In this document: in pieces, positions 10,009-62,151 of the stretch | Position numbering within the stretch: the stretch's first letter is position 1 | How the letters are laid out: the number at the start of each line of letters is the position of its first letter | Assembly (NCBI GenBank): GCA_044892525.1 | Contig: CM097885.1 | Coordinates: forward strand, 26,972,001-27,036,000 | Length of the DNA stretch: 64,000 bases | Reading direction: 5' to 3' | Origin: Schmidtea polychroa | Taxonomy: Eukaryota | Position numbers and translations under genes: made by a program | The notes under the pieces: model-generated | The model's database searches: none | Seen by the model: the letters and a program-made list of their open reading frames with translations, nothing else | Told to the model about the DNA's origin: nothing

Positions 10009-10133
10009 TTATCTATAAGTGTCAGAAAATGACAGTGTATAAAAGAAAACCATTAATTGCAAAAGACAGAAAAAATTCATTTGGAAAAACAGAAATAAAG
10101 AGGAGTTGGAATATTGAGTTTTTGAAACGAGAA

Positions 10134-11653
10134 AGTAGGTAGATGTGAGCCCCATGAATCAGTATGAGTTATCGCGCATATATACCCCCCCCCCTTGCTG
10201 ATAAGTTATTGCGCGTTTGATCGATGAGTTATCGCGCATATATTGATTTTTAAGTGCAAAGTGCAAAATGTGCAAAATGTGCAAAATGTGCAAAATGTGT
10301 AAAATTTATTCAGGTGTGCTTTTCTTACATTAAAGATTTCACCCAGACATTGTCCACGAAAAAAGATTTGTTATTTGTCGACACAGATTAATTTATATGA
10401 AATCAACAAAAAGATTTCTTTTCAATATATATGTCACGTTTTTAAGGAATAATTTTTGGAACATTGGGAACCAAGTATATTTAGTCGAGACATCCTTAAC
10501 AAAAAAGTTGCGTCTTGATTCAACTAAGAAGATTCTTTAATAAAGATCTCGAAAAATTTCTTGGTTCTCCTAGGAATTCAGAAAGTGTAATCAATCAATA
10601 TTTTTGGGCTATCTTGAGAACGAGACATATTTAGTCGAGACATCCTTAACAAAAAAGTTGCGTCTTGATTCAACTAAGAAGATTCCGAAATAAAATCCTC
10701 GAAAAGTTTCTTGGTTCTCCCAGGAATTAAGAAAAGGTAAAATCAATCGATAATTCTCAAAAATTCGGCTATGTCCGAATGTATTATGAATTATCACGGA
10801 TTTTGATTGATGAGTTATTGTGCGTTTGATCGATGAGCTATCGCGCATATATACCCCCCACCCCCCTACTGATGAGTTATTGCGCGTTTGATCGATGAGC
10901 TATCGCGCATATATACCCCCCACCCCCCTACTGATGAGTTATTGCGCGTTTGATCGATGAGCTATCGCGCATATATTGATTTTTAAGTGCAAAGTGCAGA
11001 AAGTGCAAAATGTGCAAAATTTAGTCAGATGTGCTTTTCTTACATTAAAGATTTCACCCAGACATTGTTCACGAAAAAGATTTGTTATTTGTCGACACAG
11101 ATTATTTTATATGAAAATCAACGAAAAGATTTCTTTTCGATATAAATTTCACGTTTTTAAGGAATAATTTTTGGAACATTGGGAACCAAGTATATTTAGT
11201 CGAGACATCCTTAACAAAAAAGTTGCGTCTTGATTCAACTAAGGAGATTCCGAAATAAAATCCTCGAAAAGTTTCTTGGTTCTCCCAGGAATTAAGAAAA
11301 AGTAAAACCAATCGATAATTCTCAAAAATTCGGCTATGTCCGACGGACTTTGAAATATTTTCAACCATTCTATTTATGACAGTGCATCGTAAAATTTACA
11401 TATTTTGATGGGACTTTCAGCTTTCTATAGTAGTTTTGAATGGAGATTTCAAATCTTTGTTCAAATGTATACTGTTATTGTGTCAACTATGAATATTTGT
11501 TTAAATAAACTCATTTGATTAATATATAGAGCCAATATAAATAGAGATATTAATACCAATGTTTTTGTTTTATATGTAATTAAAATCAGAGATGTCGAAT
11601 CTTTGTTTTAAAAATTATTTTTCGCGCGCAATTTAAAAAATATTAACTATTTC
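10134..11653 (+). repeat. Left TIR of the Polinton (about 1.52 kb, internally duplicated)
   Basis: Reverse complement of 25229-26023 plus about 725 bp of extra duplicated sequence; includes ~62-bp and 10-bp (GTGCAAAAT) subrepeats. Confidence 0.93.
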
Positions 11654-11705
11654 AACATGTTTTTCGACTCATTATATAAACAATATTTGTAGTACATCTT
11701 TTTAA

Positions 11706-12329
11706 ATGGAATTACAAAATGAAGCTGTTTATCAAATTGTCGGTCCTAGTGGAAGCGGTAAAACGCTTTTTGTATGTAAATTGCTTCAGTCTAATTTGTT
11801 TGTTGAAAAATTCAACAAAATATATTGGCATCGAGGTTCAGAAACTGAAAATGGTTTGACGCATTCAGAATTCTGTAAAGTACAAATGAAAATTATAAAA
11901 GGGTTTGATAAAGATTGGACAAAACGTTTACAAAAGAGAGATGTCATCATCATTGATGATTTATATCAAGAAGCCAACAAAGAAAAGGAATTTAATAATT
12001 TGTTTACAAAGATTTCTAGACATGTTGGAGTTACAGTTATTTTTATAACCCAAAATCTTTTCCATCAAGGAGGAAATCATAGAACTCGTAATTTAAATGT
12101 ACATTATCTAACAATTTTTAAAAACCCTAGAGATGCAACAGTCATTGATTTTCTAGCAAGACAAGCATACCCAAACAATAGGAAGTTTCTACTAGAAGCA
12201 TTTCAAGATGCAACTAAAATTCCCCATGGATATTTATTTCTAGACTTTACCCAAAAATGTTCGGATGAATTACGAGTTCGAACAGATATATTTAACAAAA
12301 ACGGTGCAACAGTATATAAACAAAGTTGA
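11706..12329 (+). CDS. Polinton packaging ATPase (A32/FtsK-HerA-like)
   Basis: Walker A GPSGSGKT, Walker B VIIIDD, SRH, ITQNLF and FKNPRD motifs. Confidence 0.95.
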   Translation: MELQNEAVYQIVGPSGSGKTLFVCKLLQSNLFVEKFNKIYWHRGSETENGLTHSEFCKVQMKIIKGFDKDWTKRLQKRDVIIIDDLYQEANKEKEFNNLFTKISRHVGVTVIFITQNLFHQGGNHRTRNLNVHYLTIFKNPRDATVIDFLARQAYPNNRKFLLEAFQDATKIPHGYLFLDFTQKCSDELRVRTDIFNKNGATVYKQS

Positions 12330-12348
12330 TCAATTGAAAAGATTAATA

Positions 12349-12867
12349 ATGTCTTTTCAAAAGGTAATTGTCAAACCTTCAAAGAAATTGAAGAATTTGA
12401 TTGCAAAGCGTAAGAACAGGAAAATTACAAATAAAATTGCAAATAAAATTCCACTGAAAACCAGTTACACTGAACCAAAAGAGTTTCAATTATCAAAACA
12501 AAACCCTAAAGATTTTATAGCATCTAGAAAAATCAAAATTCCAAGAAGCTTACCATATTTTAATTCTTTGTTGAAGGCTCCTAAACAATCAAGAATGATA
12601 ATTTTACAAACATTCCCTACATTTGTGATAGATGATTTACTTGATATTATAATGAAAGTTGTACATGGGAAGATAAATAATAGCAGTGCAAGAAAACATA
12701 TTTTGGAAAAACACAAGAAATCGCTTCTATCACTTGTAAATAGCAAAAACAAAAAACAAATGAGAAAGATTATGTATAAACAACAAGGAGGATTTATAGC
12801 TGCATTAATTCCTCTTGCATTATCTTTATTAGGTGGAGCAGGTTTATTAGGAAGTCGAAGTTCATAA
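12349..12867 (+). CDS. Basic virion core protein with an adenovirus pX-like C-terminal peptide
   Basis: Lys-rich; ends QQGGFIAALIPLALSLLGG, i.e. an xxGG/F protease site followed by a hydrophobic pX-like tail. Confidence 0.75.
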   Translation: MSFQKVIVKPSKKLKNLIAKRKNRKITNKIANKIPLKTSYTEPKEFQLSKQNPKDFIASRKIKIPRSLPYFNSLLKAPKQSRMIILQTFPTFVIDDLLDIIMKVVHGKINNSSARKHILEKHKKSLLSLVNSKNKKQMRKIMYKQQGGFIAALIPLALSLLGGAGLLGSRSS

Positions 12868-12928
12868 ACAATGGGTGGTAGTCCTTCATTACCGAATTTC
12901 AAACTTGATTTTAATTCAAATTGTTGCA

Positions 12929-13952
12929 ATGGAGAAAATTTGGACAAATCCAAGAGACTCAGCATCTTTCGGCGGAATCGACAGACTACAGAAGGCAATG
13001 AAGAAATCAAAGAAAGAGACAAGAAATTGGTTATCAAGCCAACTTGCATACAGTCTCAACAAACCGATGTTAAAAAGATTTCCAACAAGAGCATATAAAA
13101 CATTTGGTATTGATGATTTATGGCAAGCGGATTTGTTGGAAATGATTCCATATTCCAGTATCAACAAAGGTTACAAATATATTTTAACATGTATTGACAT
13201 ATTTAGCCGATTTGCGAGAGCTATACCTGTTAAAACTAAATCTGCTAGTGAAATTGCTCAAGCAATAAAGAGTTTATTTGCTGATGGGCATCCCGATAAT
13301 TTGCAAACTGATTTGGGTAAGGAATTTTACAACAGTAAAGTTAAACAAATTCTAAAAGAAAATCATGTAAATCACTACACTGTTCATTCTCAATATAAGG
13401 CAGCCTATGTCGAACGATTTAATCGTACATTGAGAGATAAATTGAAAAAGTATTTTGTACATCAAGGCAATAAGACATGGATACATGTTTTACAAAATCT
13501 GATTCATTCATATAATCATTCCTCGGCACCATGGTTTAAATGGATTAAGACCAGTTGATGTTTCAAATGATAATCAAGTCAAATTATGGTTATCTCGACA
13601 AGTTCCAAAACCCAAGAAAGCAAAATATAAAATCAGTGATTATGTAAGAATATCAAAAATTAGTGCTTCTCCATTCATTAAAAACTTTGATAGTAATTGG
13701 AGCGACGAAGTTTTTCAAATTTCGAAGATTAACACTAAACAGAGTCCAATAATGTATGTCATTAAGGATTATGATAACAATGAAATTATAGGTAAATTTT
13801 ATGAACAAGAATTACAAGTTATTCCAAGTCCTACAACTTTTAGAATACAAGAAATTCTAAAGACCAGAGGAAAAGGGAAGCATAAACAATATTATGTCAA
13901 ATGGCATGGTTATCAAAACCCTACTTGGATACTGGAATCTCAGTTGAAATGA
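12929..13952 (+). pseudogene. Retroviral-like (rve) integrase with C-terminal chromodomain; one frameshift at about 13523
   Basis: DDE triad in WQADL, QTDLG and VERFN; a shifted frame continues RHHGLNGLRPVDV...WSDEVF...GKFYEQELQ...YYVKWHGY. Confidence 0.93.
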
Positions 13953-14959
13953 ATAAAACTAATTTTTACATGATTTTACCCAGCAATAGCTCTCCTTTAA
14001 TTCATCCAAATAACAATGCCAGTAAATTTATTGTCGAACTTCAAAATCCAATCTATTTAAATGGTAGTTGGGAAGTGTCCTTGTTGGATTTTACATTTGT
14101 ATACAATCTCTTTCCGTTTTACAGTAAATCCAAGATTGAATATACCAAGATGGAATCAGTATCAGAAATTGTCAAAGTGCAGATAATTCAAGATAGCTAT
14201 GAAATGATCAATCAAGCAAATACAAATGCGATAATATATGTTGAGGATAGATATTTATACTTTCAATGTTTGAAGCGACCATTTCAATTTTTATTTGAAA
14301 CCTTAACTGATGCAAAACGCCTAGGATTTACTCTATTGCGTAACACTTTTGATGAAACGGTGAAATTTGATATTGATACTCTTCCAAAAACTGATGCTAT
14401 ATTCAAATTTCAACTCTTGTATAACAAAGCTGTTGAGCATAGCTATACATTTCAAGATGATTTGTATATTACAGATCTTGATCAATTAAAAGTTTATTTA
14501 ACAAAACATTGTGCAGATATTTTCGCTGTTGTTGAATTAGACAAATTTTTTAAATTTCAAATGAATCCGAATGTTGGCCAAATGAAATTTGACTCTAATT
14601 TGGTAAAGACATTAGGATTATCAAAAGAAACGTATATACAAAACTTAAAAGTTAACGAAGGAACATCGAAACCAAAAATAATTAAACTTCATCAGCAAAT
14701 GTTCATTTATAGTAATATTGTTGAATCTGTAATTGTTGGTGATGTAAGTGTTCCTCTAATGAAAGCAGTATGGGTTGAAAAGCATGAACAAGATGAAGTG
14801 GTACAGATAACGATTGAAAATCCTATGTATTTACCTGTTGCAACATCATGTATAAACAATATAGAAATTAATATACGTGATGATTCTGGAAAATTGATAA
14901 ACTTTTCAAAAGATTCAAAAACCCATTTGACTTTACATTTTCGAAAGGTGAATGTCTAA
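13949..14959 (+). CDS. Minor capsid protein (penton)
   Basis: Typical Polinton N-terminus FYMILPSNSS...NNASKF...L.GSWEVSL and C-terminus IEINIRDDSG...LTLHFR; ATGA overlap with the integrase stop. Confidence 0.85.
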   Translation: MNKTNFYMILPSNSSPLIHPNNNASKFIVELQNPIYLNGSWEVSLLDFTFVYNLFPFYSKSKIEYTKMESVSEIVKVQIIQDSYEMINQANTNAIIYVEDRYLYFQCLKRPFQFLFETLTDAKRLGFTLLRNTFDETVKFDIDTLPKTDAIFKFQLLYNKAVEHSYTFQDDLYITDLDQLKVYLTKHCADIFAVVELDKFFKFQMNPNVGQMKFDSNLVKTLGLSKETYIQNLKVNEGTSKPKIIKLHQQMFIYSNIVESVIVGDVSVPLMKAVWVEKHEQDEVVQITIENPMYLPVATSCINNIEINIRDDSGKLINFSKDSKTHLTLHFRKVNV

Positions 14960-15341
14960 TCCTGATATTGTGTCGTTATATAGTAATAGTCAAACTGGTG
15001 GAGAATTACCATATTTTATGGGTAAGCAATATGGATCCGGATGGTTGCAAACAATTGGAAGGTTCGCACTTCCAATACTTAAAAAGATTGGTTCATTTGG
15101 CATGAGAACAGCAAAGGATGTGATAATGAAAGATCAAAAAATACTACCAACATTGAAAAGACATGCAATGAATGAAATTGGGAAATTGATGCCAAGTGCA
15201 GCAAAGATTTCTAAACCAAATGAAACTAAAAAACCTCCAACATCAACACCACAACAAATTTTGAGTAAGCGACGAAAATCTCGTATAAACAAAAGATGGA
15301 AAGGTTGTGGAACAATATTCGAAAATGATGATCTCCGGTAA
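14952..15341 (+). CDS. Small basic virion protein with protease sites and an amphipathic helix
   Basis: Y..SQTGG.LPYF.G.QYGSG followed by WLQTIGRFALPILKKIG; basic C-terminus; lies between penton and MCP. Confidence 0.75.
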   Translation: MSNPDIVSLYSNSQTGGELPYFMGKQYGSGWLQTIGRFALPILKKIGSFGMRTAKDVIMKDQKILPTLKRHAMNEIGKLMPSAAKISKPNETKKPPTSTPQQILSKRRKSRINKRWKGCGTIFENDDLR

Positions 15342-16554
15342 AACTGAATTGTGTATTTTTGATCGTCCGTCTCCACAAGTAGTAATTGAAAATGGAATAT
15401 TTGAAGATGTATTTCCTATGAATTCAATTACTGATTCAAGGAATGATGTAGAATTTTTTGTTAACGGTTCACAGACTGAATATTTAGATTTGAATGACAC
15501 TCTATTATCCATTCAACTGAAGGTTGTAGATAAAGACAATAAAGATCTGGCAGATGGTGTTGATGTAATTCCAACCAACTACATGTTTCATACTCTATTT
15601 AAAGATGTTATTCTGGGTTTTAATAATATCAAAATCGAAGGTGGCAACAACACATATGCACACAAAGCTTTAATTGAAACAATTTTAAACTATAACGGAG
15701 ATACAAAAAGTATTTGTCTTGCGCCGATGGGTTATGGAAGTAAAGATTTTAGGAAAACATGGATTGCGAAATCAAGACTGTTTTCAATGTGTTCATCATT
15801 ACAACTAGATTTTATGGATCAGCCTAAATATTTACTACCAGGAGTCAATGTACATATTCGTATGAAGAGATCAGACTCAAAATTTTGTTTGGATACATCT
15901 GTAGCTGGAGCATCACCAAAATATCAGTTGGTTGATGCAAAATTAATGGTTCGCCGTGTACGAGTTGAGTCATCAGTGTTGGCAGGCCATCAGATTGGTC
16001 TTAATTCACAACATGCGATTTATCCTATCAAAACCAAAGAAATTGTTGCCTTTGCAATAAGTAAAGATTCATCCTCATTTTATAAAGAACAAATATTTGG
16101 CGATAAACGTTTGCCAAATTTTATTCTTGTAACCTTCCAATCAGAAGCACAATATAATGGTTCATATACAGAAACTAGCTCAAAATTCGCACATTTCAGT
16201 ATGACTTCTTTAACTTTATCAAAAAATTCCGATTATCGTGAGACATATACTCAAGATTTCGACAACGATAACTATGCTGCGACCTATATGCAATCTATAG
16301 TTCGAAATATGGGTTATTTAGATAAGAATTTAAATTGCGGAATCGACATTGTAGATTTTAAGACCAAATATCCTTTCTTTACATTCATTTTGGCTCCAGA
16401 CTTTGATTGGAATCAAAGTCAATTGCCACAAAATGGAAATCTGAGACTTGATATTAAATTCAACAAGGCTTTAACATCTCCTGTATATGTAATTATTTAT
16501 GGAGTTTTTGAAAGCGAAATACAGATTTCAGCAAATCGGTCAATTCTAGTTTAA
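15325..16554 (+). CDS. Major capsid protein (double jelly-roll, hexon-like)
   Basis: Polinton MCP patterns KTELCIFDRP..Q, YLDLNDT, KYLLPGV and GNLRLDIKF...L...VYVIIYG. Confidence 0.9.
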   Translation: MMISGKTELCIFDRPSPQVVIENGIFEDVFPMNSITDSRNDVEFFVNGSQTEYLDLNDTLLSIQLKVVDKDNKDLADGVDVIPTNYMFHTLFKDVILGFNNIKIEGGNNTYAHKALIETILNYNGDTKSICLAPMGYGSKDFRKTWIAKSRLFSMCSSLQLDFMDQPKYLLPGVNVHIRMKRSDSKFCLDTSVAGASPKYQLVDAKLMVRRVRVESSVLAGHQIGLNSQHAIYPIKTKEIVAFAISKDSSSFYKEQIFGDKRLPNFILVTFQSEAQYNGSYTETSSKFAHFSMTSLTLSKNSDYRETYTQDFDNDNYAATYMQSIVRNMGYLDKNLNCGIDIVDFKTKYPFFTFILAPDFDWNQSQLPQNGNLRLDIKFNKALTSPVYVIIYGVFESEIQISANRSILV

Positions 16555-16567
16555 ACAAAGATGAAGT

Positions 16568-16969
16568 ATGGAGTAAGTTGAAGTATGGAGTAAGTTTACT
16601 TTCTAATAAACGATTTACTTGATTAGTTCTGTTCAGCTTAATTGTATTGCAACAAATCTGTTTGGAGACAGGTTTTTAGGAGTTTATCCGCTGGATAAAA
16701 TCCCTTTTCTTGAAAGTAACAATGCTTTAATAGTCAATACCCAATCATCAAGTCTCGATGGCGAACATTGGCTAGCAGTATTTGTTAAACCTGAAAAGAT
16801 TAAAGTGTTTGATCCGATGGGTTACTATTATCCGCCTCTGTTAGTGTCGAAGTTGTCGAAATTATCAAAACCTATCGTGTACAATAGAATTCGTTATCAA
16901 GAACCGCTAACAGTTACATGTGGACAACATTGTATTGTTTGGTTATGTTTTGAGTTTAATAAATATTAG
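16568..16969 (+). CDS. Adenain-type maturation cysteine protease; probable micro-exon ATGGA plus intron (16573-16626, or 16590-16626)
   Basis: Catalytic motifs GEHW, FDPMG and Q...TCGQHC; no in-frame ATG unless spliced, which gives MDSVQLN. Confidence 0.88.
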
Positions 16970-17114
16970 TTGGTGTTCATTTCTTTATTTTCAAAAATAA
17001 CTAAAATAACACAGTTTTTGTACAATATTTTATTAAATAACAATAACAACTCTTTATATACATAAAAAATAGAATGTCTGTTTGAGGAAATTTGACAGTT
17101 GATTTCACATATAA

Positions 17115-20100
17115 TCATGCAAATATATTATCATCATTATCAACAATATTTATACTATAGTGTCCATATGCAAAACTTTTGTTCCGACCCACCCATACCC
17201 TTTTATCATCCTTATTTGACAGAGCCAAATTTGTTGATTTAAATGTGTAAAGTTGATGATTTTTGGACCCAAGCCTCGTTTGTATGACTTTAGGTATTTC
17301 CATTCCATTAAAACAGTCGATGGATGATTGATGATCTATCTCAGTTTCATTCAATCTAATACCTTTGGCTTTAATAGTTTTCTTTGGACCACCCAACAAA
17401 CTATAAAGCTTTGGCCGAAGAAATATCCATTCATCATATAGGACTCCCTTACTTTCATCCTTAAACTTTCCTATAACAGAATCTAATCTTCTGTTATACA
17501 GCGGATGAGACGAATTATAATTAGATGCATCCAATAGATTATCTTGGATCATAGCTTCTAATAATGTTTGCAATTTAAGATTCTTAATTTCCAAGAAGAA
17601 CGAATCCGTATCCCCTGCTGCTATATTAATCTCACAATTGAACTGTTCACGATACTTTTGTAGTTCTATATACTGCAGCTCATACATTCTTAGTTTGGAG
17701 AGATCTAAAACTGTTTGTCCAATATACGAAGGTCTATCCAAACATACAACATCAGGGTTCATAATTGCAGCTATTAAATCATCTGCAATCTTTATACTTC
17801 TCTTGAAGGTTGGTTTTGATGAATATGTTACCATTTTTCTTTGTGAATTGCACAACCTTAAATTCATCCTCTTCTTTAAATTTTCCACTGTTTTCCCATA
17901 TAAACTGTTGTTTAATAGTTTATAATATCCCTTCTCCAGTTCAGATGTTGATTGAGCCCTCAATTTGGTGTTGGCTTCCACATATTCCTTGAAAATAGTT
18001 GATTGGTTAAACTTGATTGCCCGATGTATATTTGTTACTTCAACTCCTAAAAACATATACATTTTCAATAGTCGCCAATGAATTACATAGTTTTTCTTCG
18101 GGTAATGTGTTAACAGAAGCTTTTCCACTTTTGTTCCTTCTGGACACATCTTCTCTGGTGCAACAGGTAAATCGTCTAATAAATCATGAATTTCATCTGG
18201 AATATTCATATCAACCTCCAACGTATATCCATATGGTAAATTCTCTAGGTTTGATGATTTACACTCTTCTAGAATAGTGTCCAAATCAGTATGGATCCAT
18301 TCAAACTTTCCATATGGCAAACTCTGACTAAGTGCCCATCCATACAAGTTATTTATATCGATATATAATAACTCTGTATTTTCATCTCTTCTGACTTGAT
18401 GTTTATTAACGAAAGTCATACCTCCTCGAATGCCAGCTTCATAATAATTATACATTTCATTATCTTGCAACAATTCAATAGGTCTATCCAATGACATTAA
18501 TGCCGATGCCCATGTCATTCCCGGAATACTGAAAAAATTTAAAGGTTCCAATCCATTATGGGCTAGTGATTTAGTTCTGAATTGTTGAAAGTAATCTGCT
18601 AAAAGATATACATCCAACTTTAGATATATCATCATATAGTCTAAAAGGGTTTCACATCCGGTTTCAGACCATATGTTCACTGCTTTATCATATGCGGCTT
18701 GTGACACTCCTTCCCAAATTGGTGGCAATTCTCTGGTTTCTCATAGAACTTCCAGGCTTGTGGCAAAATTGTATGGAAAAATACCTTTTGAATCCTGTAT
18801 TGTTCCCGTAAATGCTGCATTTGTAATTGGTAAACTGTTTATTGTTTTTACTGCATTATCCAAAGATTCATTTACAAACTGATATGAATCAATGAATTTG
18901 ATCTTTATTTGCTTACAATGCGCAATAAGCGTAAGAAATTTTTCGGATGTTGTCGGAATACAACTCAAATTCCAGTGAGGGAATTTATTTATGCCATATT
19001 TTAAAATATGATGCATATCATAACCTCTCCGGTTATGAAATACTACTGGAAGCACTCGACGTACTCTTCTTGAAAGATTACATTTTCCACATGCCGCACC
19101 TAAATATTTCCCGCTGAAATGATCATGATCTCGAACCAAATGATCACAGTGTTCCTTACATATATAACAAAATGATTGCATATTAAAAGAGGATTGTTCC
19201 GTTGGACTGAGAATTAAAGGTTGTTTACCATTTCTCTGGTAATAATGATTTACTTTATTTTCTGCTATTTCCTCTACTTTCTTTAAAAAATCAAATATAC
19301 AATTTAACCCAATAAATTGAAAATATGAGGAAGCTCCGCTAAAATTGTTTATCAGCAAAAGTCCAGCTGAAATCGGTAAGTGTTTCTGATGGTATTGCTG
19401 ATCGTCTGGTAAAATAGATTCGAAATCAGCATAGATTACGAAAGGTGGAGTCACTTTCTTCGACCAATCTTTGAATCTGAGCTCTTTTTCTGTTGGCATA
19501 ACGTACAAAGTTGTCCCAAGCTGATTTTTCTTACATAAAGCCAGATGTCTTTCATATGTCAATTGTCTCCGAAATCCATTTAGACAATTTACACACCATA
19601 TACATTGAATTCGAACTGTACAATTATTGGATACATGACAGTTCATTAACCTGTTGATATTAGGTATTCCAACGTAATGGTAATTATTACTTTCACTTAG
19701 TAATAATAAATATATTGGTGTAACATCTTTAACCTTTGTCCTCCTAATTATGTCTATATTCGGATGTTTCATAACAACATCATCATCATTATTTAAATAT
19801 GTATCATCCGACTCGTATGAGAGAACATTGATCGCCAATCCTGGATTCTGATCTTCAAATTTCTTTATGTCATTCAATGTTGTCGGAGGGTTTTCCGAAT
19901 CGTAATTTACTTCATTCATGTACCGATAATATTGTGACGGTCTGTTACGGTTTTCATGAATGTCTTCGTATTTCAATATAGACAAAACGCTGTAGATAAA
20001 ACACAGATTGTCTTGATTTTGGATGTTTATAATTTTATTCTTTAATGATGCCGGGGTTCTTATATGTCGATGTCCAGACAATCGACTAATTTCGGCAAAC

Positions 20101-21276
20101 TTTGTTATTTTAAAATTAATCTCCAGTATCCTGTTAAGACGCCAACTGCTACCCAACTCCGATCTAATAGCAATTTTCTCATTCAAACTTTCGATTCCTT
20201 CATCTAAAAAGTCATCTGTTAATTTTGTGGCTCTGTTTGAAATTCTTGCAGTCTTCAGCTCACCGTCTTTGACGAATTCTGCATTGATCCCGAACTGTAT
20301 CTTAACGCTCTTCATTTCATTTATACAAGCGTTTAATTTTATCAGCAACCTTGGTGGAATAACTATTTTTTGTATATTATAACAAGATATGTCCAGTGTG
20401 ATAATTCTATGTGTTCTGTATAAATCACATTCAATTTCCGGTTCATCTGATATTCCTGCTCCTGTTTGAAAGTCATCAACTAGTGAGTAGTGATCTGCAT
20501 AGTCAGTACTATCACTGTCAACATTCGATATATTTTCGTTTTGATCATTGAAATCTAGTTCTTCTATTATTTCAAACGATCCATTATATCAATTTCTTCT
20601 TCTTCAGATCTTCCAACGTCTTCGCGCCTTGAACTTCCAGCTTCTTCGCGCCTTGAACTTCCAGCTTCTTCGCGCCTTGAACTTCCAGCTTCTTCACGCC
20701 TTGAAGTTCCAGCGTCTTCACGCCTTGAACTTTCAGCTTCTTCATGCCTCGAATCTTCTTCCTCGAATCCATGATTTCAATTATTTCTGAGTTTGCATTT
20801 TCTATTTTCTCCAATCTTGCTTTTTTATTTTTAATTAAGTGAGTGGAAACCTTTCTTTTGATAAGCTTATCTTCAGGCCTTGAACTTCCAACTTCTTCAC
20901 GCCTTAAACTTCCTGCTTCGTTGCGCCTTGAACTTCCAGTTTCTTCATGCCTCGAATCTTCTTCCTCCGAATCCATGATTACAATTATTTCTGAGTTCGA
21001 TATTGTATTTTCTATTTTCTCCAATCTTGCTTTCTTATTTTTAATTAAGTGAGTGGAAACCTTTCTTTTGAAAAGCTTATCTTTACGCATCACAAATTGA
21101 TTTAAATGTGTCTTATGCGTGTTATAAAAGGACATGTAGGGATCGGAACTTAAAGTTTCGCAATATGGGCATAAAAAGTAATTTTGTTGATAATATGTTT
21201 TGCCATAATATGTTTGCATGATTTTATGGCAGCTTTTATTGTGACTACTGTTTTGACAATAATTTGGGTATAACAC
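17115..21276 (-). pseudogene. polB: Protein-primed family B DNA polymerase polyprotein; in-frame stop at 18741-18743 and apparent frameshifts at about 20580 and 20765
   Basis: ExoI YADFES, EndoVII-like RDHDH...ACGKCNL, ExoII HN..GYD, ExoIII YLKLDV, motif A YIDINNLYG, motif B KLLNNSLYGK, motif C DTDS; the two track ORFs are in the same frame. The N-terminal extent (20349-21276) is less certain. Confidence 0.92.
20610..21082 (-). repeat. 24-bp coding tandem repeat (EEAGSSRR) plus a larger segmental duplication in the pPolB N-terminal region
   Basis: CTTCTTCGCGCCTTGAACTTCCAG units; the KLxKRKVSTHLIKNKKARLEKIEN block occurs twice. Confidence 0.9.
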
Positions 21277-22057
21277 ACCTTAAAATAAATAATGATTTAA
21301 ATATTTATTAAATGAATTTTATTTTATTAAAATAATTCGGGTTTCCCTTTTGTGTTCCATATATTTTGAGAAAAAAGTTTTATAATCACAAACAATGTGT
21401 AGTTTATTTTATTCAAGTGTAAGACATCCGACAAAAAACCATTACTTTATAAGTTAAAAATGCTAAAGGTAAACGGATGCATTTGTAAACAGTTTCTATG
21501 TATTGACTATTTTTTTAGTCAACAGAGGTGATTATGATTTCATACCTTATGTTTACGTGAATACAGATTTCTGTGACCAAGCTATTATGCAAGTGATGTG
21601 ATTTCCAGTGTACCATGGAAAGTATGCAATAAAGCTAGATCAATAATATTGTATTCTTATTGGTACATAAAGAATTCTTTGCGTCTCCTATAGAGTATTG
21701 ATGATAGCAAAAACAATAACTTGTAATGTTTATACTATTTTAATAATATTAAAAATAAATTAAAATTATTATAAAATTTATTAAAAAAATATTAATGTTG
21801 TTTAGTTTAATATTATAAATAAGACGATACAATTGACATTTTTACCGTTTTTGTCATTTTTACCATTTGATATTTTTTTTTTAAACAAACATTATTTATG
21901 TTTAAATTTGTTTAAATATAATATTAATTATATTTTAAAAAGACACCCAATGGAGAAAATCTCAAAGAAAATCTCAAATTCACAAAGATTTGTATCTATT
22001 TTTTCAATTTTAATTTATTAAAAATATATATATATAAAATAATAATCCTTAATTAAA

Positions 22058-22620
22058 TCTAATATATAAAGATGAAAGTTTGTTTGTTTTCTATAGAATT
22101 CCCCACCGTCGGACCTAGGATGCTGAAATTTTACACGTGGCCCTCATTTGACTCGGAACAGGTCATAGACTATGTTTCAACCCCAGGTGACTACCCCTAA
22201 GTACCCTTAGTCGGATTTATTTTGTCTGTCCGGTCAGCAATTTACCATATAAATAATAATTTATTATATGCTTGCTACTTGAAGTTAAAAGTAATATAAT
22301 TTAGTCAAAAATATTTAAAGCAGAATTCAAACTTATAGAATTTTATTTGATTAGTTAACCAGTTTGCAATTGGAAAAATATTACCGGTTATTTTTGATTT
22401 AAATTGAAGGGTTTTCGATTTTACAAATTGAAATTTATTTTGAAAGCTTTTCTTATTGTAATTAAACATAGAATCGAAACTTATAAAATTAATACTGGAA
22501 CGTATTACCATCATTAAAAAATTAATTTAATTGTATTATATAAAATTAATACTGGAACGTATTACCATCATTAAAAAATTAATTTAAATGTATTATTATG
22601 AAAAGCGGGTAAAACATTTA
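22058..22620 (+). mobile_element. Possible non-autonomous Helitron-like insert inside the Polinton
   Basis: A|TCTAATATATAAAG...GTTTGTTTG 5' pattern; degenerate GCGGGTAAAAC near 22606; no clear CTAG end; internal ~58-bp tandem duplication. Confidence 0.4.
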
Positions 22621-23207
22621 ACTTATTATAAAATTTATTAAAAAAATAGTATTTAATTAAAATTTAATTTATTATAAAAATTTATAACTTACATGTATCA
22701 TAGAAATCTTCCATATCATTTCCTTGATCGATATCACAACATATTTTCTAAGCGAAAAACTTAATATATATATATATTAAATAAATAAAGTTTACCGTTT
22801 GTTTTTTAATATTTGGCATTCTTCTTCTTTTATTTTGAATGAATAATATCTGAAAGAAAAGAAAATAAATATTTAACAAGAGCAAAATAAAATCTTACTT
22901 GTTAGATAAAAATTAATTGATTAATTGAAATTCAAATGTAATATTAAAACAATAGTTAATTATCTAAGCAACTATTGTTAACAACCAAATAGAATCTTCT
23001 AGAATTTTTTTTATATAACTAAGAATATTCTTTTTATTCATAGATTTTGTTCATAGTTAAATAATAACTGATTATTGTATCTAAATATTTATTGTTACCA
23101 ATCAACTAGAATGTTCTAGAATGTTCTAGAACATTCTAGGTTGATCTAGAATGTTATTATTAATATGTAAGTAATAAATATGAATTTGATGCAAGTTAAA
23201 TTAACTA

Positions 23208-23642
23208 TCAAAGTTTATAAATTTTTATTAAATTGACAAAAAATATAATGAAACGTTTAAACATAGTTCTTAACCAAAAATGTAACTCTAATTTTTTTAT
23301 ATATTTCCAGTCACCATTTTCTTTGATCCATGGGTATATTTTTGTAATTTCTTGCACTGGCCAGTTCATATATTTTGGATGTTCATTTGGGCATAAAATA
23401 AGAATGTTTCTGACATACATTAAGCTAACGATGACTTTAAACCAACATATACCATCCTCAAACAACGATTCAAAGACATCCTTGAATGTTTTTTCCTGAT
23501 TACCTTCCGATGATAAAATAGAAGAGAAATCAATGGTACATCGAAGCTCTACTTCTTTTATTATTTTTAATAAACAATTTATTGTTTGATCATCACTTTT
23601 ATAAATTAAACCATTGACAATGGCGATTATGTATTCATTCAT
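23208..23642 (-). CDS. Bcl-2 family protein (viral-type)
   Basis: BH1-like FKDVFESLFEDGICWFKVIV, BH2-like PWIKENGDW, hydrophobic/basic C-terminal tail. Confidence 0.82.
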   Translation of the reverse strand: MNEYIIAIVNGLIYKSDDQTINCLLKIIKEVELRCTIDFSSILSSEGNQEKTFKDVFESLFEDGICWFKVIVSLMYVRNILILCPNEHPKYMNWPVQEITKIYPWIKENGDWKYIKKLELHFWLRTMFKRFIIFFVNLIKIYKL

Positions 23643-23797
23643 TGTAAAAATGAATGTATCTTGAAATTAATATGCAAGATTAATGCATATTTTGTTTGGT
23701 TAATGTAACAAGTATTTGATTTGTTGATAAAATGAACAAATGAGAGATGTATGTGAGACAGTGTGTGTATAGAACTTAAAGTTTATCATTATTTCAA

Positions 23798-24208
23798 ATG
23801 TTGAATATGAAGAATGAGCAACCGTTATTTAAAGCAACTTATATTTTTCATGAGCATCAAATACATTTACTAGTCAATCCGATCAATTACAATTTGTTGA
23901 TTCCTGTTGAACTAGTGAAAACTAGTTACAATTACTGGATTGAAGAATTCTCTCAAGAAGATCAAGAAGCGATTACTACAATATTTGGACGAATCAACAA
24001 GCAACTTATAGTTAATGAAAATGGTTCATTCATAGGCGGTCCATCAACGAAATTTTATGATGAAGACGAGAATCAAATCCCATTTAAACCTAATGCTAAA
24101 TGGAATATGAAAATTTGCATTCAAGGTTATAAAATAGCGCCAAGTACAGCAATATTACCTATATGGAAGATTGTAAGTGGAAAATTGCAAAGAAATTATG
24201 TATGTTAA
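23798..24208 (+). CDS. Hypothetical Polinton protein, possibly an OB-fold ssDNA-binding protein
   Basis: Intact 136-aa ORF; C-terminal TKFYDE...MKICIQG...PIWKIVS is reminiscent of viral SSB beta strands; function is inference. Confidence 0.55.
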   Translation: MLNMKNEQPLFKATYIFHEHQIHLLVNPINYNLLIPVELVKTSYNYWIEEFSQEDQEAITTIFGRINKQLIVNENGSFIGGPSTKFYDEDENQIPFKPNAKWNMKICIQGYKIAPSTAILPIWKIVSGKLQRNYVC

Positions 24209-24401
24209 TATCTTATGTTATTTTTATTAAATAAATGTTTCTGTTTAAAAATCGTGTTGTTATGATATCATAATTTGGTTGTCATAATAATATTTAAAAT
24301 TTAAAATAATCAATATAATTACCTAGAGTTATCCATTATTTTCAATAATATTAGTAAATATTAATTACCGTGGACGGGTTTCATTAAAAGTTATACAAAA
24401 T

Positions 24402-24797
24402 ATGAATTTTCCTTATGGTAAACCTCAGCAAATAATAGATAAAACTGATAATTATACAATTATATTCTTCAAGACAGGGAAATGTCGAATAATGGGTTGC
24501 AAAAAACCTATTGAAAGCATACATTATAATATTAAAGATGTTCATCTTCAATCTTGTACAATTACTATTGATATCAAACAACTAATTAATTTGCAATATT
24601 TGTCAAAGAAAACAAAATGTGTATATGAACCAGAAATATTCCCGGGTTTGCGTCTCATATCTTATAACCCCTTGTGTGTAAACTTGTTTTCTAGTGGAAA
24701 AATAGTTGTACTTGGTTTAAAAACTCTAAATTATAATTGGATTGTCAACAAAATTATAAATGATGTAAATGATTTGATTGGTTCACAAAAACTATAA
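24402..24797 (+). CDS. TATA-binding protein (TBP)-like protein; frame open upstream to about 24327
   Basis: Two TBP repeats: IIFFKTGKCRIMGCK and YEPEIFPGL...VNLFSSGKIVVLGLK; upstream in-frame LVNINYRG resembles the first strand. Confidence 0.88.
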   Translation: MNFPYGKPQQIIDKTDNYTIIFFKTGKCRIMGCKKPIESIHYNIKDVHLQSCTITIDIKQLINLQYLSKKTKCVYEPEIFPGLRLISYNPLCVNLFSSGKIVVLGLKTLNYNWIVNKIINDVNDLIGSQKL

Positions 24798-24833
24798 ATA
24801 TTGTACACTTTAACATTTGTTTCATTTATTACA

Positions 24834-25189
24834 ATGTCACAAGTTTCTGAAATCGGTAAATAAATATATTTTATTCTTAAATTTTAAAATTATGTTTAGA
24901 TTATCAAATAGAAATTCTAATTAATAAAGTGTTTGAGATTTATCCGGAAATCAAAGATGAAATTATAAATTATGCTCCGGAAATTGCACCAGCCAAAATA
25001 TTTCAGGCAACTGGGATTAACATAGAGCGCATTATTTTTCACCATAAATTTATGATGTATGGATATGAAAAGCAAACTCAATTACTAAAAGATTCATGTT
25101 GTCAATATCAATGTCAAGAATGTATTACTTACAAAAGAAAACAAACAGTAAACATTCTACTCAACGAATTGTATAAATATTTCAAATAG
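24834..25189 (+). CDS. Two-exon Cys-rich hypothetical protein (exons 24834-24855 and 24900-25189)
   Basis: A 44-nt GTAAAT...TTTAG intron joins MSQVSEI in frame to DYQIEILINKVFEIYPE...; CCQYQCQEC cluster. Confidence 0.7.
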
Positions 25190-25228
25190 TTTTTTAATAA
25201 ATGTTTCATTGTTTTGAAAATTTAATTA

Positions 25229-26023
25229 GAAATAGTAAATATTTTTTAAATTGCGCGCGAAAAATAATTTTTAAAACAAAGATTCGACATCTCTGATTTT
25301 AATTACATATAAAACAAAAACATTGGTATTAATATCTCTATTTATATTGGCTCTATATATTAATCAAATGAGTTTATTTAAACAAATATTCATAGTTGAC
25401 ACAATAACAGTATACATTTGAACAAAGATTTGAAATCTCCATTCAAAACTACTATAGAAAGCTGAAAGTCCCATCAAAATATGTAAATTTTACGATGCAC
25501 TGTCATAAATAGAATGGTTGAAAATATTTCAAAGTCCGTCGGACATAGCCGAATTTTTGAGAATTATCGATTGGTTTTACTTTTTCTTAATTCCTGGGAG
25601 AACCAAGAAACTTTTCGAGGATTTTATTTCGGAATCTCCTTAGTTGAATCAAGACGCAACTTTTTTGTTAAGGATGTCTCGACTAAATATACTTGGTTCC
25701 CAATGTTCCAAAAAATATTCCTTAAAAACGTGACATATATATTGAAAAGAAATCTTTTTGTTGATTTCATATAAATTAATCTGTGTCGACAAATAACAAA
25801 TCTTTTTTCGTGGACAATGTCTGGGTGAAATCTTTAATGTAAGAAAAGCACACCTGAATAAATTTTACACATTTTGCACATTTTGCACATTTTGCACTTT
25901 GCACTTAAAAATCAATATATGCGCGATAACTCATCGATCAAACGCGCAATAACTTATCAGCAAGGGGGGGGGTATATATGCGCGATAACTCATACTGATT
26001 CATGGGGCTCACATCTACCTACT
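25229..26023 (-). repeat. Right TIR of the Polinton (about 795 bp)
   Basis: Near-perfect reverse complement of the outer and inner parts of the left TIR. Confidence 0.95.
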
Positions 26024-28780
26024 CGAGAAGAAGTAAAATCAAAACAGTAATCAATAAAAGTTAAAACAAAACAGCCAGGGAAAAATAGAAAAATGAATAT
26101 AATCGTTAATTCAATAAGCCAGTGATAGTCGAAGTAAATTGTAGAAATTGTTAAAGTCCTAAGTCGAAATAGGAAAGCAACCGGATCAATTGTGCGATAT
26201 GTTACCCATTAGCAGCAGTTAAGTGGTTGTATAATAAAAGTGTTCCTAAAGTGATATTCCTCCCGAAGGGTTGTAATAAACACCCGAATACGTTTGAGTT
26301 GCATTGATTAATTGGTGTCAGTGTAATCGTTATAACCATTTAGTGGTATTGAATAAAGTTATATTATTTGGAATTCGTTGTTGTTGTTAAATAAAACACG
26401 CTCGGAGTCAGAAAACAGTAATTAATTTGATAAACCAACGACAACAAACAAACCCCAACAATTTGTTATTATTACTTTTACAAAGTATTTCCAACTGTAT
26501 TGCTTGCTTGATATAATTGTTAAAGAAACACCAGTAAAACTTTCGTATTTTTTGAAAATATTTTGAAATTTCATGTATTTTATTTTCCTTATAATTTTGC
26601 GTTATCAGCGATATCTTACTCAGCCAAAGATATATGATACAAGTAACAAGAATTTTCTATAAGTCCTGTCTTGCACATGTAAATGTATGGATCTGCTTTG
26701 TTGTATATTCATACTACAACTATTTGTATCTCTTTTAGTTTCTAGGGTCACATCTTTCCAAACATCAAATGATTTATTCGATCAGCTTTTATAACTATTA
26801 CTAACAACTTTCCCAACTATGTTGGAACTATATAATGTAGCTTTAACTATAATAAGCAGGTGAACTTTGGTATTAAAACTACTTCATGATGTGCTTTCGC
26901 ATTCGGTTCTTGGTACCAATAAAATGATTCACACCACCGTATCGCTCAAAATTTCCCACTAAATTCTTATCTTCTCACTGTTGTTAGTCGATCTATTTTA
27001 TTCCCAATAATCTATTTAAAGTCAATGAATTATTAGTAATATTAAACAAATGCATAATCAATATGCAAGGCAAAACACATTAAGAAACTTAAAGTATGGA
27101 AAATTTATAACAGGTGTGCCGTTTTAACGAAGCGGGCATAATCTTCGTCACGTTTGTGATTTTGGTTTTTGAAGATTTTTTGCTTTCTTAGTTTTTTTAT
27201 ATTCTATCTTATTATTTTTTGCCGTTTTTATTTTTGGATTTTTTCCTTTTGCGGTCGTTTTCTTTTTTATTCGTTATCTCAGTTGTTTTGGGTGCTTCCT
27301 CTTCTTCTATGTGTTTTTTAGTTGCATTTTCTTTTTCTGCTTGTGCTGTCTTTTTGGCTTACTCTTCTTCTATGCGTTTTTTGTCGCTTTTTCTTTTTCT
27401 TGTGCTTCCATTATTTCCTTTAAGCCTATCGATTCCTTTCTTTGGCGTTTAGGTTTTATTCTTTTTGTGTTGTTGCTAAATCTTGCGTATTTAGCTTCTA
27501 TTACACTTTCGCTTTCTTCGGATTCCTCAGTCTTTGAATCTAAGCTATAGGCTTCATAGTCTGTTTCTAGGTATCTATCCTCAACGTAGGATATTTTCTC
27601 TTCTTGTTACTACTACCAGAGAAAACTTTACTTTTACTCTGACTGCTTCACTCACCCTTAATCCTTGTCAGTAATTTATAAATCATAACAATAAAATACA
27701 TATATTTCAGGACTACACATAACTCATACTTTACAACCTGATGCTAGGAATACTACGATGAAGTTCTTGATCCTTATAAATTTAGGAGAAGGTCTTAGTT
27801 TGTTTGTTTAGAAGTAAGCTTAGCGCAATATTCTCAGAAATCATTTAATCCCTGGTATGAGTTAGAAGTGATATTATCCTATGAGGATCGTGTACTAAAG
27901 ACAGATTAAACTAAGTGCCTTGAGAGAAATCTAGGTCCATTTTAGCCTATGTCAATTCTTCACAAGAAGACTCTTTCAGAGTCGTTGATTCTGTAACATT
28001 AACACGATCCTCTTCAAACTTTATGTCACTAAAATATTTATAAATTATAACTGTTACATACATTTCCTTAGTACTTTGTCATACAATTAGAAACTATTCA
28101 TCAGCTTGTCCATCTCAACTTCATAAACTCGTGAATCGCCTCAACCATATTATGGTTACCATACTCACATTTCAGTATAACAGATTTTCTCAGCACAACC
28201 AAAGCGAAAACAACGAAAGAAAATCAATCACGTTAACACAATTATTTATTGAGAATTTTAAATTTGCTATAAAAAAATATACGTGGGGAGTTTGTGTTTG
28301 TCAATTTTGGGACACGCGGAGTCAGAGTAATCAACGGTCGACTTTTTAGTATCATAAAACCCAACAATATTACATGTTTATATAATATTGAGACACTATA
28401 TATTCAAAGGATCTTTTCGATCCATGAATTTTTGCGCAGATTTTAAAGTTACATAATGAGAGTGAAAAAGAATCTTGGAAATTTGTTAAATTTTAAAATT
28501 TCTGAATACAAATGAAAAAAAGTAAAAAATATCACTCATTTTAAGAGAAGAACAATGCTAAATTCCCGAGTAATTTAGTTGACCTTAAGGACGCAGGGGT
28601 ATAATGAGCATCAAAATTAGAAAACTAAGGTCATGAACGTTAAGGTTACGTTAAAACGGTTAATTTCCTGAATATGAATTTGTACAACGGGTTAAAGGTA
28701 GATTAGACAATGAAGACCAACATGTTGAGAATAGATTTGTTGTGAAATAGATTTGTTGTGAAATAGATTAATTAAACAAT

Positions 28781-32311: not shown

Positions 32312-32628
32312 TGTTAGAAGCTATAACATTTAATTCTTCGGTCATCAAAATAAATTACTAAGACTATTAAATCCAAAATTATATTTCATTAAATCTGATT
32401 ATATAAACAAATATTCTTGGGACATTTTCTAAATTTTAATTTCAACCAAATATCAACATACCATCGCATTCATACTTGAATTTCAATTTTATTAAAAATT
32501 ATTTTATTTTAAAATTTCAATTATCATTTCAATTTTAATATCTTAAAATAATTTAAGTTTCAATTAAAACTTTACAAATTTTAATCATGAACTAATTTAA
32601 TTTAGTATTTTAATTTTAACTCCTCACA
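32312..32628 (-). repeat. 3' LTR
   Basis: Direct repeat of 37056-37372 with one substitution seen. Confidence 0.97.
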
Positions 32629-35946: not shown

Positions 35947-35969
35947 TCTTTGGTTAAAATCAATATTAC

Positions 35970-37056
35970 TTAGTAAATTGCTCCGATCAATGTCCCGTTT
36001 GACGGAGCGTGCTCGTTTGGGTCATTCTCCCTGTTATACTCGTCTGGCTGGCTTGACTGTTTTGTATTCATCATCTCATCATCAGACTCGATAGCTGCAA
36101 TATCTTTTCTGTTATATTGTTGGTTTCCCCATTGTCTTTGATGTACGTTCCTTGATTGATACATATCGTCCCTTTGTTGATAGGTATTTCTTTGAATTCT
36201 TCCTCCTGACATCTTCCTTTGGTCTCGATCTCTTCCTTGATTTCGTCTTTCCATATTTGTGTAGCACTCTCTTTCTTTGTGTCCTCGTGCATTGCATCTA
36301 TGACATTTGATTGTTGGGCATTCTCTTCGTATGTGACCTTCAACACCACATGCATAACATTGAAATCTTCTTTTTATATTACATTCTCTGCTACTGTGTC
36401 CCGGTTTTTGACACGTCCAGCATTCTATCACTTTAACTCTTGTCTCTGGTTTCCATTCGTTGATTTCTCTCTTCGTGGCTCCAACTTGTACTACATCTCT
36501 ATAAGTTCTTCCCCCAGTTGTAGGTCGTATTGATCTCACCGTGTTTACTTGTTCAATAACCTTGTTAACTTTTTCTATCTTCTTTATAGTTTCTTTAATT
36601 TGTTCCGCCGTTTTGAGATCTTTCATTTCGATTTCTTTCCTGACTTCTTTATCTCTTACACAATGTGTCAATAAACATTTCTGAATTTCTTCCTCATTCC
36701 AAGTGTGTGAGGCCAATTTTTTAGTCATTTTTGATATTTTCTCTATAAATATTTCCGCTGATTCGTTACCTTGCTCGTAGTTCAAGGCTTCTCTTAAGTC
36801 ATCAATCAATGACGTTGGTCGATGAAAAGCTGCTCTTAATTTCTGTTCAACGGTTTTACCTTCTGTGGTTTCATATTCTTCAATCAAAGTCCTGTCCAGA
36901 AGTGTAATAACTAGTACCATTTGGGTCTTCACTGGTGTCTTCGCTTTTTTCAAAGAACCTCTGACATTCTTTGATAAATAATTCGAGGTCATCTCCTCTG
37001 TGGAATTTTTCTGGAAGTAATCTTCCAATAAGCAGATCCGTTGGAATGGTCGCCAT
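35970..37056 (-). CDS. gag: Gag with three CCHC zinc knuckles; frameshift in an A-run at about 36945-36950
   Basis: CWTCQKPGHSSREC, CYACGVEGHIRREC, CHRCNARGHKEREC; the N-terminus MATIPTD...ECQRFFE is in a different frame. Confidence 0.9.
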
Positions 37057-61965: not shown

Positions 61966-62145
<180 letters not shown>

Positions 62146-62151
62146 TTCATA

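What the first reader, a model, noticed from the sequence alone, without database searches (positions are those of the whole stretch)
23208..23642. Bcl-2-like gene in the Polinton with an altered BH1 (ICWFK for NWGR)
BH1- and BH2-like motifs and a C-terminal tail are present, but the NWGR groove signature is replaced, as in divergent viral Bcl-2-fold proteins (adenovirus E1B-19K is the classic analogue). An apoptosis modulator points to a virus-like life cycle rather than pure transposition.
Basis: partly seen in the sequence, partly recalled or inferred. Interest (0 to 1): 0.7.

Follow-up and report, generated by a model that had tools for sequence, protein, structure and literature searches.

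The report
Polinton-captured flatworm-type Bcl-2 gene
A virus-like Polinton element carries a real but worn cell-death-control (Bcl-2) gene whose closest named relative is the essential survival gene bcl2-1 of a planarian, so its odd binding motif was mostly inherited from a host gene, and such cargo is already known in these elements.

Summary
The 144-aa ORF is real, Bcl-2-like (Pfam E 3.4e-6, below the curated cut-off) and lies inside a 15.9-kb Polinton with terminal repeats and a 6-bp target duplication. The reading of its altered BH1 needs changing. The closest named relative is cellular Schmidtea mediterranea BCL2-1 (38% identity, 81 bits), whose RNAi lyses the animal. It and two unnamed relatives also lack the Asn and Gly of NWGR, so the loss looks like a host-lineage trait, not E1B-19K-like viral drift. 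The Phe of ICWFK is peculiar to this copy: 3 of 3 runs covering that codon read another base. This copy also has broken integrase and polymerase genes. Best reading: a captured flatworm survival gene that delays host-cell death during element replication, probably impaired in this copy. Structure predictions were too poor to test the fold; expression and a possible splice at 23286 are open; the flatworm host is inferred. Bcl2 cargo in adintoviruses is published (PMC8502044), and this scan found it before on other DNA, once in this same genome (e1-7879924). New member of a known kind.

The parts
23208..23642 (-). Bcl-2-like ORF, 144 aa, uninterrupted
23436..23450 (-). BH1 core ICWFK (NWGR position); the Phe codon (68) differs from all other runs that cover it
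   Evidence: (X1, X2, X6; X8 has no cover)
23307..23330 (-). BH2-like motif, residues 105-112
23211..23288 (-). C-terminal tail, residues 119-144; short hydrophobic core, no significant match to the relatives' tails; GT at 23286 is a possible splice donor
   Evidence: (table 8)
10128..10133 (.). left 6-bp target-site duplication
10134..11653 (+). left terminal inverted repeat, starts AGTAG, with an internal duplication of about 715 nt
11706..12329 (+). packaging ATPase (Pox_A32-like)
   Evidence: E 1.4e-8
12265..12867 (+). basic ORF, presumed virion core protein (label recalled, no hit)
   Evidence: 0 families
12929..13949 (+). rve integrase, broken: core frame ends at 13558, chromodomain-bearing part lies in another frame (13503-13949)
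13901..16554 (+). three ORFs (352, 129, 409 aa) at the places of minor capsid, core and major capsid genes; identity by position only, no hits
16610..16966 (+). adenain-type protease frame
   Evidence: Peptidase_C5 22.1 bits, cut-off 21.3
17115..21279 (-). [quoted passage not shown]
21337..21750 (.). high-depth host repeat nested in the element (bounds approximate)
   Evidence: table 2
22022..22570 (.). second high-depth nested repeat (bounds approximate)
   Evidence: table 2
23798..24208 (+). 136-aa ORF, head-to-head with the Bcl-2 ORF across 155 nt; no hit
24402..24797 (+). short TBP-like gene
   Evidence: E 1.8e-14
25229..26023 (-). right terminal inverted repeat
26024..26029 (.). right 6-bp target-site duplication, identical to the left

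Best explanation
An ancestor of this Polinton family picked up an intron-less copy of a flatworm bcl2-1-type survival gene, already carrying a non-canonical BH1, and kept it as an accessory gene upstream of the polymerase. It then evolved fast. In active elements the protein most likely works as a viral-type Bcl-2: it sits on mitochondrial or ER membranes and holds back Bak/Bax-type killers, so that a cell replicating or integrating the element's linear DNA does not die. In this particular inserted copy, whose integrase and polymerase are broken, a bulky Phe at the NWGR glycine position probably blocks the groove, so this copy's product is likely impaired. Shown: Bcl-2 homology, place inside the element, closest named relative, shared loss of Asn and Gly, copy-specific Phe, broken core genes. 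Inferred: flatworm host, direction of capture, expression, membrane targeting, anti-apoptotic action, impairment by the Phe. Rough odds: Bcl-2 family 0.97; derived from the flatworm bcl2-1 lineage 0.85; anti-apoptotic in active elements 0.6; this copy impaired 0.6.
For: Closest named protein P0004 = ACW83059.1, 38% over 131 aa, 80.9 bits, against 35.8 bits for a herpesvirus-like vBcl-2 in the same blastp run. ACW83059.1 is bcl2-1 (PMC4993586 supplement file 2 row 38) and bcl2-1 RNAi gave total lysis (PMC4993586 passage); it is called a pro-survival factor in PMC7586133. All 3 of 3 relatives lack Asn and Gly of NWGR; 2 of 3 keep Arg. L001, which encodes P0003, looks like a cellular transcript: the gene is its longest frame and about 800 nt of microsatellite-rich sequence follow. 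Five-row tree joins the ORF with P0004 at 97/93, on a long branch (1.65 against 0.23). Helix 2 has no Gly-Asp BH3 core, which argues against a Bax/Bak-type killer (motif recalled). Codon 68 is read otherwise in 3 of 3 covering runs, codon 95 in 4 of 4 (codons). A Gly-to-Phe change at the equivalent site abolished the anti-apoptotic action of vaccinia F1L (PMC2836074 passage). Bcl2 and IAP homologues are reported in adintoviruses (PMC8502044). The listed contig pieces over the ORF have no gaps in X1, X2 and X6 (table 8).
Against: Both AlphaFold models were poor (pLDDT 55.8 and 47.6), so the fold is not shown by structure. Pfam score is under the curated cut-off. The top Atlas cluster is mostly viral and partly E1B-19K. 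Mouse Boo, with a similar non-canonical motif, binds no pro-apoptotic partner (PMC5691656 passage), so the groove may not bind BH3s even in the relatives. The tail is weak for a membrane anchor. The tree has only 5 rows, a long query branch and no flatworm paralogues, Burro domains or adintovirus Bcl2 sequences. P0001 and P0003 are unnamed and on short contigs, so their cellular origin is inferred. Only 5 differences in the ORF were visible (3 synonymous, 2 not) among 40 of 455 rows shown, too few to show selection. The window's Phe could be an assembly error rather than a mutation.
Confidence: 0.6

Rival explanations
1. Groove-independent modulator: like mouse Boo, the protein keeps the fold but binds no BH3 peptide, and acts on something else (autophagy, calcium, innate signalling) or as a decoy that interferes with host BCL2-1.
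For: Gly of NWGR absent in all 3 relatives; Boo with a similar motif engages no pro-apoptotic protein (PMC5691656; PMC8998228); weak tail.
Against: The closest named relative with the same kind of motif is essential for survival; BH1 flank and BH2 residues stay conserved.
Confidence: 0.15
2. Passenger: a captured host retrocopy that drifts without selection and is copied along with the element.
For: Long branch; shortened N-terminus, loops and tail; two non-synonymous copy-specific differences at columns conserved in the relatives; broken integrase and polymerase in this copy.
Against: At only 33-42% identity to relatives the frame is still open and keeps the BH1/BH2 core, which drift would not allow; 3 of 5 visible differences are synonymous against 18% (32% for transitions) expected, a small sample.
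Confidence: 0.1
3. Old viral gene: inherited along the adintovirus/adenovirus line (E1B-19K-like), its likeness to planarian BCL2-1 being convergence or a virus-to-host transfer.
For: Top Atlas cluster 0.94: viruses 55%, PF01691 20% of members; Bcl2 genes occur in other adintoviruses.
Against: No PF01691 hit; 81 bits to BCL2-1 over both termini-proximal helices; no relative in viral contigs with the ORF as query; Atlas recognition below its threshold.
Confidence: 0.1
4. The true product is spliced at 23286 and has another C-terminus, so the in-frame tail is not the real tail (compatible with any of the functions above).
For: Homology to relatives ends at about residue 118, just before the GT at 23286; the main X1 contig leaves the window sequence at 23285 with 28 unplaced letters and X1 has almost no cover from 22570 to 23254; an earlier scan note describes a two-exon Bcl-2 in another Polinton of this genome (e1-7879924, unchecked).
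Against: No second-exon piece matches the relatives' tail among 1104 frame pieces of the element (best nearby 0.2 bits); X1 is only guessed to be RNA and its even cover of intergenic and intron-like parts looks like DNA, so a genomic deletion or insertion explains the break equally; X2, X6 and X8 contigs run straight across; the in-frame tail aligns loosely with the relatives' tails.
Confidence: 0.2

Closest known systems
Schmidtea mediterranea BCL2-1 (ACW83059.1 / C9WPR4; gene bcl2-1, FJ807655.1)
   Same: 38% identity over 131 aa; same helix order; BH1 without Asn and Gly; no Gly-Asp BH3 core; sister in a five-row tree.
   Different: 40 aa shorter, short loops, weak tail, Lys for the BH1 Arg, Phe at the Gly position in this copy, much longer branch, and located in a Polinton.
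Bcl2 accessory genes of adintoviruses/Polintons (Starrett et al. 2021, PMC8502044)
   Same: Bcl-2 homologue carried by an animal element with pPolB, rve integrase, packaging ATPase and adenain; lies upstream of PolB, where that paper places Oncoid accessory genes.
   Different: That paper names no planarian element in its main text (0 hits for planari/flatworm/Schmidtea); its Bcl2 sequences were not visible, so kinship is untested; none was assayed in the passages read.
BCL2-like domain of planarian Burro LTR retrotransposons (PMC6431247)
   Same: Apoptosis-regulator cargo in a flatworm mobile element.
   Different: Domain inside a giant polyprotein of a retroelement; relation to this ORF not tested.
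Mouse Boo/Diva (BCL2L10)
   Same: Cellular Bcl-2 fold with a small non-Gly residue in the NWGR motif.
   Different: No sequence comparison made; Boo binds no BH3 partners whereas planarian bcl2-1 is essential.
Adenovirus E1B-19K (PF01691)
   Same: Small viral Bcl-2-type protein of a related class of linear dsDNA elements; works by binding Bak/Bax (PMC11209288).
   Different: No Pfam match. From recall, not from a call, E1B-19K keeps the Gly-Arg of BH1; PMC2836074 says BH1 mutations abolish its activity. It is a functional analogue at most.

Membership tests
Bcl-2 family (multi-motif, PF00452) | Sequence homology across the Bcl-2 domain | tested here: met
   Pfam E 3.4e-6 over profile 2-100 (28 bits, cut-off 31.4); three relatives at E<=2e-21 pass the cut-off (45.3, 49.8, 43.3 bits); profile search of PDB E 1.4e-9 to Bcl-xL
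Bcl-2 family (multi-motif, PF00452) | BH1 and BH2 regions in order | tested here: met
   LFEDG..W and W..ENG.W align to Bcl-xL BH1 and BH2
Bcl-2 family (multi-motif, PF00452) | Helical-bundle Bcl-2 fold by structure | tested here: inconclusive
   models at pLDDT 55.8 and 47.6, all-helical; Foldseek ranks Bcl-xL first to sixth but at E 0.5-0.95; two searches gave nothing clear
Bcl-2 family (multi-motif, PF00452) | C-terminal membrane anchor (common, not universal) | tested here: inconclusive
   19-residue hydropathy 1.12 against 1.35-1.83 in relatives; longest uncharged run 9
Canonical pro-survival Bcl-2/Bcl-xL | NWGR groove motif with Gly and Arg | tested here: not met
   CWFK at that place
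Canonical pro-survival Bcl-2/Bcl-xL | Binds BH3 partners and blocks Bak/Bax | not testable with these tools
   needs assay
Bax/Bak-type effectors | BH3 with Leu-x3-Gly-Asp in helix 2 (motif recalled) | tested here: not met
   no Gly-Asp in residues 20-35
Adenovirus E1B-19K (PF01691) | Match to the family profile | tested here: not met
   no hit at E<=0.1; Atlas cluster with 20% PF01691 is a weak lead only
Planarian BCL2-1 lineage | Best hit and grouping with BCL2-1 to the exclusion of paralogues | tested here: inconclusive
   best named hit and 97/93 grouping, but no paralogues were available
Polinton/Maverick (adintovirus-type) | Long terminal inverted repeats, AG ends, 6-bp target duplication | tested here: met
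Polinton/Maverick (adintovirus-type) | pPolB and rve integrase | tested here: met
   both broken in this copy
Polinton/Maverick (adintovirus-type) | Packaging ATPase and adenain protease | tested here: met
Polinton/Maverick (adintovirus-type) | Jelly-roll major and minor capsid proteins | tested here: inconclusive
   ORFs of fitting size and place, no Pfam, PDB or viral-contig hit; not folded

The most novel reading that the evidence does not exclude
Flatworm Polintons captured the host's own essential, non-canonical survival gene and express it from a spliced early unit shared with the polymerase leader, as adenoviruses do with E1B, so that many genomic copies add to the host's anti-death dosage in stem or germ cells; with the Burro retroelements this would make apoptosis-gene capture a repeated adaptation of mobile DNA to regenerating flatworms, and the fast-evolving copy a natural probe of how a Gly-less BH1 still protects cells.
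Probability: 0.15. Interest if true: 0.6.

Novelty: new member of a known kind. Interest (0 to 1): 0.27.

Why it matters
Modest. Bcl-2 cargo in Polintons is published and recurs in this scan. The useful new points are a traceable donor lineage (an essential planarian gene), the fact that a cellular pro-survival protein without the NWGR glycine explains the motif, and the warning that the most striking residue belongs to one decayed copy. If expression and function were shown, it would be a rare case where a Polinton accessory gene and its host source can be assayed side by side in an animal with RNAi.

Tried and rejected
Single-sequence word-index search: 27 candidates, none at E<=0.01. Full HMMER scan of 1.84 billion representatives: 2 hits, one (P0002) a repeat-driven false hit that was dropped. 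Viral contigs: no relative with the ORF, the 409-aa ORF or the polymerase C-part as query; P0001 found only a herpesvirus-like vBcl-2 (L002). Metagenome scan with alignment A1: 203 pattern matches, none confirmed. Structure: two low-confidence models; Foldseek PDB no match at E<=0.001, BFVD none, VIA-align best Z 6.1 on unrelated helical bundles; the second model was not searched; these blanks say nothing against the fold. Expression: no RNA holder listed; X1 is a guess and was laid as contigs only. Depth is not a copy number. A frameshifted or second-exon tail: not found. TATAAAC box: 25 in the window against 25.6 expected, none in the 155 nt upstream of the ORF; not informative. No tRNA or Rfam hit. 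No whole genome is held, so no copy survey. The original bcl2-1 paper and the planarian mitochondrial-apoptosis paper were not held. No complex prediction was run: no planarian Bak or BH3 sequence was available. Rejected: chance ORF; host gene outside the element; assembly-made tail (contigs of X2, X6, X8 cross it); Bax/Bak-type killer (no BH3 core).

Full report
Observation. The ORF 23208-23642 (-) encodes 144 aa with ICWFK at 65-69, a BH2-like motif at 105-112 and a short hydrophobic tail. Pfam Bcl-2 is the only family hit (E 3.4e-6, 28 bits, cut-off 31.4). All 60 PDB sequence hits shown, of 109 at E<=10, are Bcl-2-family chains, and ICWFK aligns with the NWGR of Bcl-xL. A profile from the window protein plus two relatives reaches Bcl-xL at E 1.4e-9. 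A profile of three relatives alone scores the ORF 85 bits, the reversed protein -0.4 and the best of 1000 shuffles 9.6.

Context. The gene lies in a 15,890-nt Polinton, 10134-26023, with AGTAG ends, long inverted repeats and identical 6-bp flanks. It carries a packaging ATPase, rve integrase, adenain-type protease, protein-primed polymerase and a short TBP, plus ORFs at the usual capsid positions that gave no hit. This copy is damaged: the integrase is split over two frames near 13503-13558, and the polymerase region has an in-frame stop at 18741-18743 and a frame change near 20570-20776; two high-depth repeats sit between the polymerase and the Bcl-2 gene. The Bcl-2 ORF is on the polymerase strand, upstream of it, and head-to-head with a 136-aa ORF. 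The surrounding window is AT-rich animal DNA with a cytosolic carboxypeptidase exon, Ty3/Gypsy and other transposon pieces.

Relatives. A full scan of 1.84 billion representatives gave 2 hits, one real (P0001, 42% by blastp) and one repeat artefact. Profile searches added P0003 (33%) and P0004 (38%), 3 proteins among 3551 candidates at E<=10. P0004 is S. mediterranea ACW83059.1, listed as bcl2-1 in a supplement of PMC4993586, whose text reports total lysis after bcl2-1 RNAi. PMC7586133 calls Smed-Bcl2 a pro-survival factor; PMC3566077 says it is required for cell survival while loosely calling it pro-apoptotic. The contig of P0003 (L001) holds this gene followed by microsatellite-rich sequence, like a cellular transcript. 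In one blastp run the ORF scores 72-81 bits with these three and 36 with a herpesvirus-like vBcl-2. A five-row tree joins it to P0004 (97/93) on a branch seven times longer; the tool warns that long rows are unsure, and no paralogues were available.

The BH1 question. All 3 of 3 relatives lack the Asn and Gly of NWGR and have a small residue at the Gly position, as mouse Boo does; 2 of 3 keep the Arg. So the loss of the signature predates the element or at least is shared with a working cellular gene. The Phe is another matter. The 1.7-kb stretch is held at half or more of its words by 8 of 21 listed runs, from 4 studies. Of 4 runs laid, the 3 that cover codon 68 all read another base there at full depth, and all 4 differ at codon 95 (codon numbers). 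Three further listed differences in the ORF are synonymous (worked out by hand); two of them are shared by the window and X1. Only 40 of 455 rows were shown, so this is not a full count, and contigs drop rare variants. The Phe is thus a private change of this copy or an assembly error. In vaccinia F1L a Gly-to-Phe change at the equivalent site removed Bak binding and anti-apoptotic activity (PMC2836074), so this copy's groove is probably impaired (inference).

The E1B-19K analogy. PF01691 is not hit, and no viral contig relative was found. Against this, the best ESM Atlas cluster (0.94) is 55% viral with 20% PF01691 and 16% PF00452 members, at a recognition value the tool rates weak; the same cluster ranks 30th for P0001. 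From recall, E1B-19K keeps Gly-Arg in BH1; I found no passage stating it. E1B-19K is a fair functional analogue, not a demonstrated relative.

The tail. It is a marginal membrane anchor. Homology ends near residue 118, next to a GT at 23286, and the main X1 contig leaves the window at 23285 while X2, X6 and X8 contigs run through. No piece among 1104 frames of the element matches the relatives' tail.

Mechanism. Most likely (0.6): a captured bcl2-1-type gene expressed early, whose product restrains Bak/Bax-type effectors; flatworms have a mitochondrial pathway with Bak and Bcl-2 homologues (PMC8998228 passage citing earlier work). It would keep cells alive through the DNA-damage signal of linear DNA replication and integration. 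This helps a transposon as well as a virus, so it does not by itself prove virions. Rivals: groove-independent or decoy action (0.15), passenger (0.1), old viral inheritance (0.1); a spliced C-terminus (0.2) is compatible with any of them.

What is known. Starrett et al. 2021 state that adintoviruses carry Bcl2 and IAP homologues (PMC8502044: passages, section 3.2, text of Supplementary Fig. S2 with 3 Bcl2 labels; Fig. S1 and the sequence files were unreadable or cut and may hold closer relatives). PMC11071296 mentions anti-apoptotic homologues in mammal-associated adintoviruses (passage). Planarian Burro retroelements carry BCL2-like and BIR domains (PMC6431247 section 7). PMC8097293 has no 'bcl' in its text and the vBcl-2 review PMC11209288 no 'polinton'. 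I found no paper on a planarian Polinton Bcl-2 in searches (3 papers; 5; 7; listing only for six of them); subscription journals and Repbase are not covered. This scan has noted Bcl-2 in Polintons before, in this genome and at least two others (unchecked notes).

Verdict. Real gene, known kind of cargo, with a traceable host donor lineage and a headline residue that belongs to one decayed copy. Novelty: new member of a known kind. Interest 0.27.

Noticed in passing
window 22849-22796, 22747-22693, acceptor 21278 (-): Two mini-exons with strong splice sites (ATG at 22819, 48-nt intron) whose phases fit the long frame starting at 21279: a likely spliced leader of the polymerase gene, with the nested repeats lying in its intron. 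Matches the lead in e1-7879951. The acceptor at 22849 implies a further upstream exon, close to or within the Bcl-2 unit.
   Followed up: partly
window 24402-24797 (+): Short TBP-like gene in the element (Pfam E 1.8e-14); TATAAAC lies 31-101 nt before three plus-strand genes (11675, 14851, 15284) but is not enriched overall.
   Followed up: partly
window 23213-23219 (-): A TATAAAC lies in the last codons of the Bcl-2 ORF, upstream of the polymerase mini-exons; may be chance.
   Followed up: no
window 61196-63999 (-): A second Polinton-type polymerase piece, 67% identical to the first, followed by a frame ending in a C3HC4 RING (IAP/MDM2-like by recall; Pfam E 1.5e-9, no BIR hit).
   Followed up: partly
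window 10134-11653: Left terminal repeat has an internal duplication of about 715 nt and 62-nt sub-repeats, absent from the right one.
   Followed up: no
window 23798-24208 (+) and 24881-25186 (+): Two small frames without any Pfam hit inside the element; contigs of other runs show diverged relatives of the first.
   Followed up: no
window 20545-21219: 24-nt tandem repeats and a 210-nt duplication in the low-complexity N-terminal part of the polymerase region.
   Followed up: no
window 32602-36992 (-): Ty3/Gypsy element with open gag (340 aa) and pol (1114 aa) frames.
   Followed up: no
window 2119-2745 (-): Exons of a host cytosolic carboxypeptidase gene; poly(AAT) arrays at about 860-2000 and 61960-62160.
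   Followed up: no
window 42797-43573, 48159-48938, 49174-49968 (+): Three related coiled-coil-like ORF copies of unknown kind.
   Followed up: no
L002 1-13457: Herpesvirus-like gene cluster (FLIP-like, CD200-like, DHFR-like, Bcl-2, complement-control-like; labels by eye and recall); used only as a distant control.
   Followed up: no
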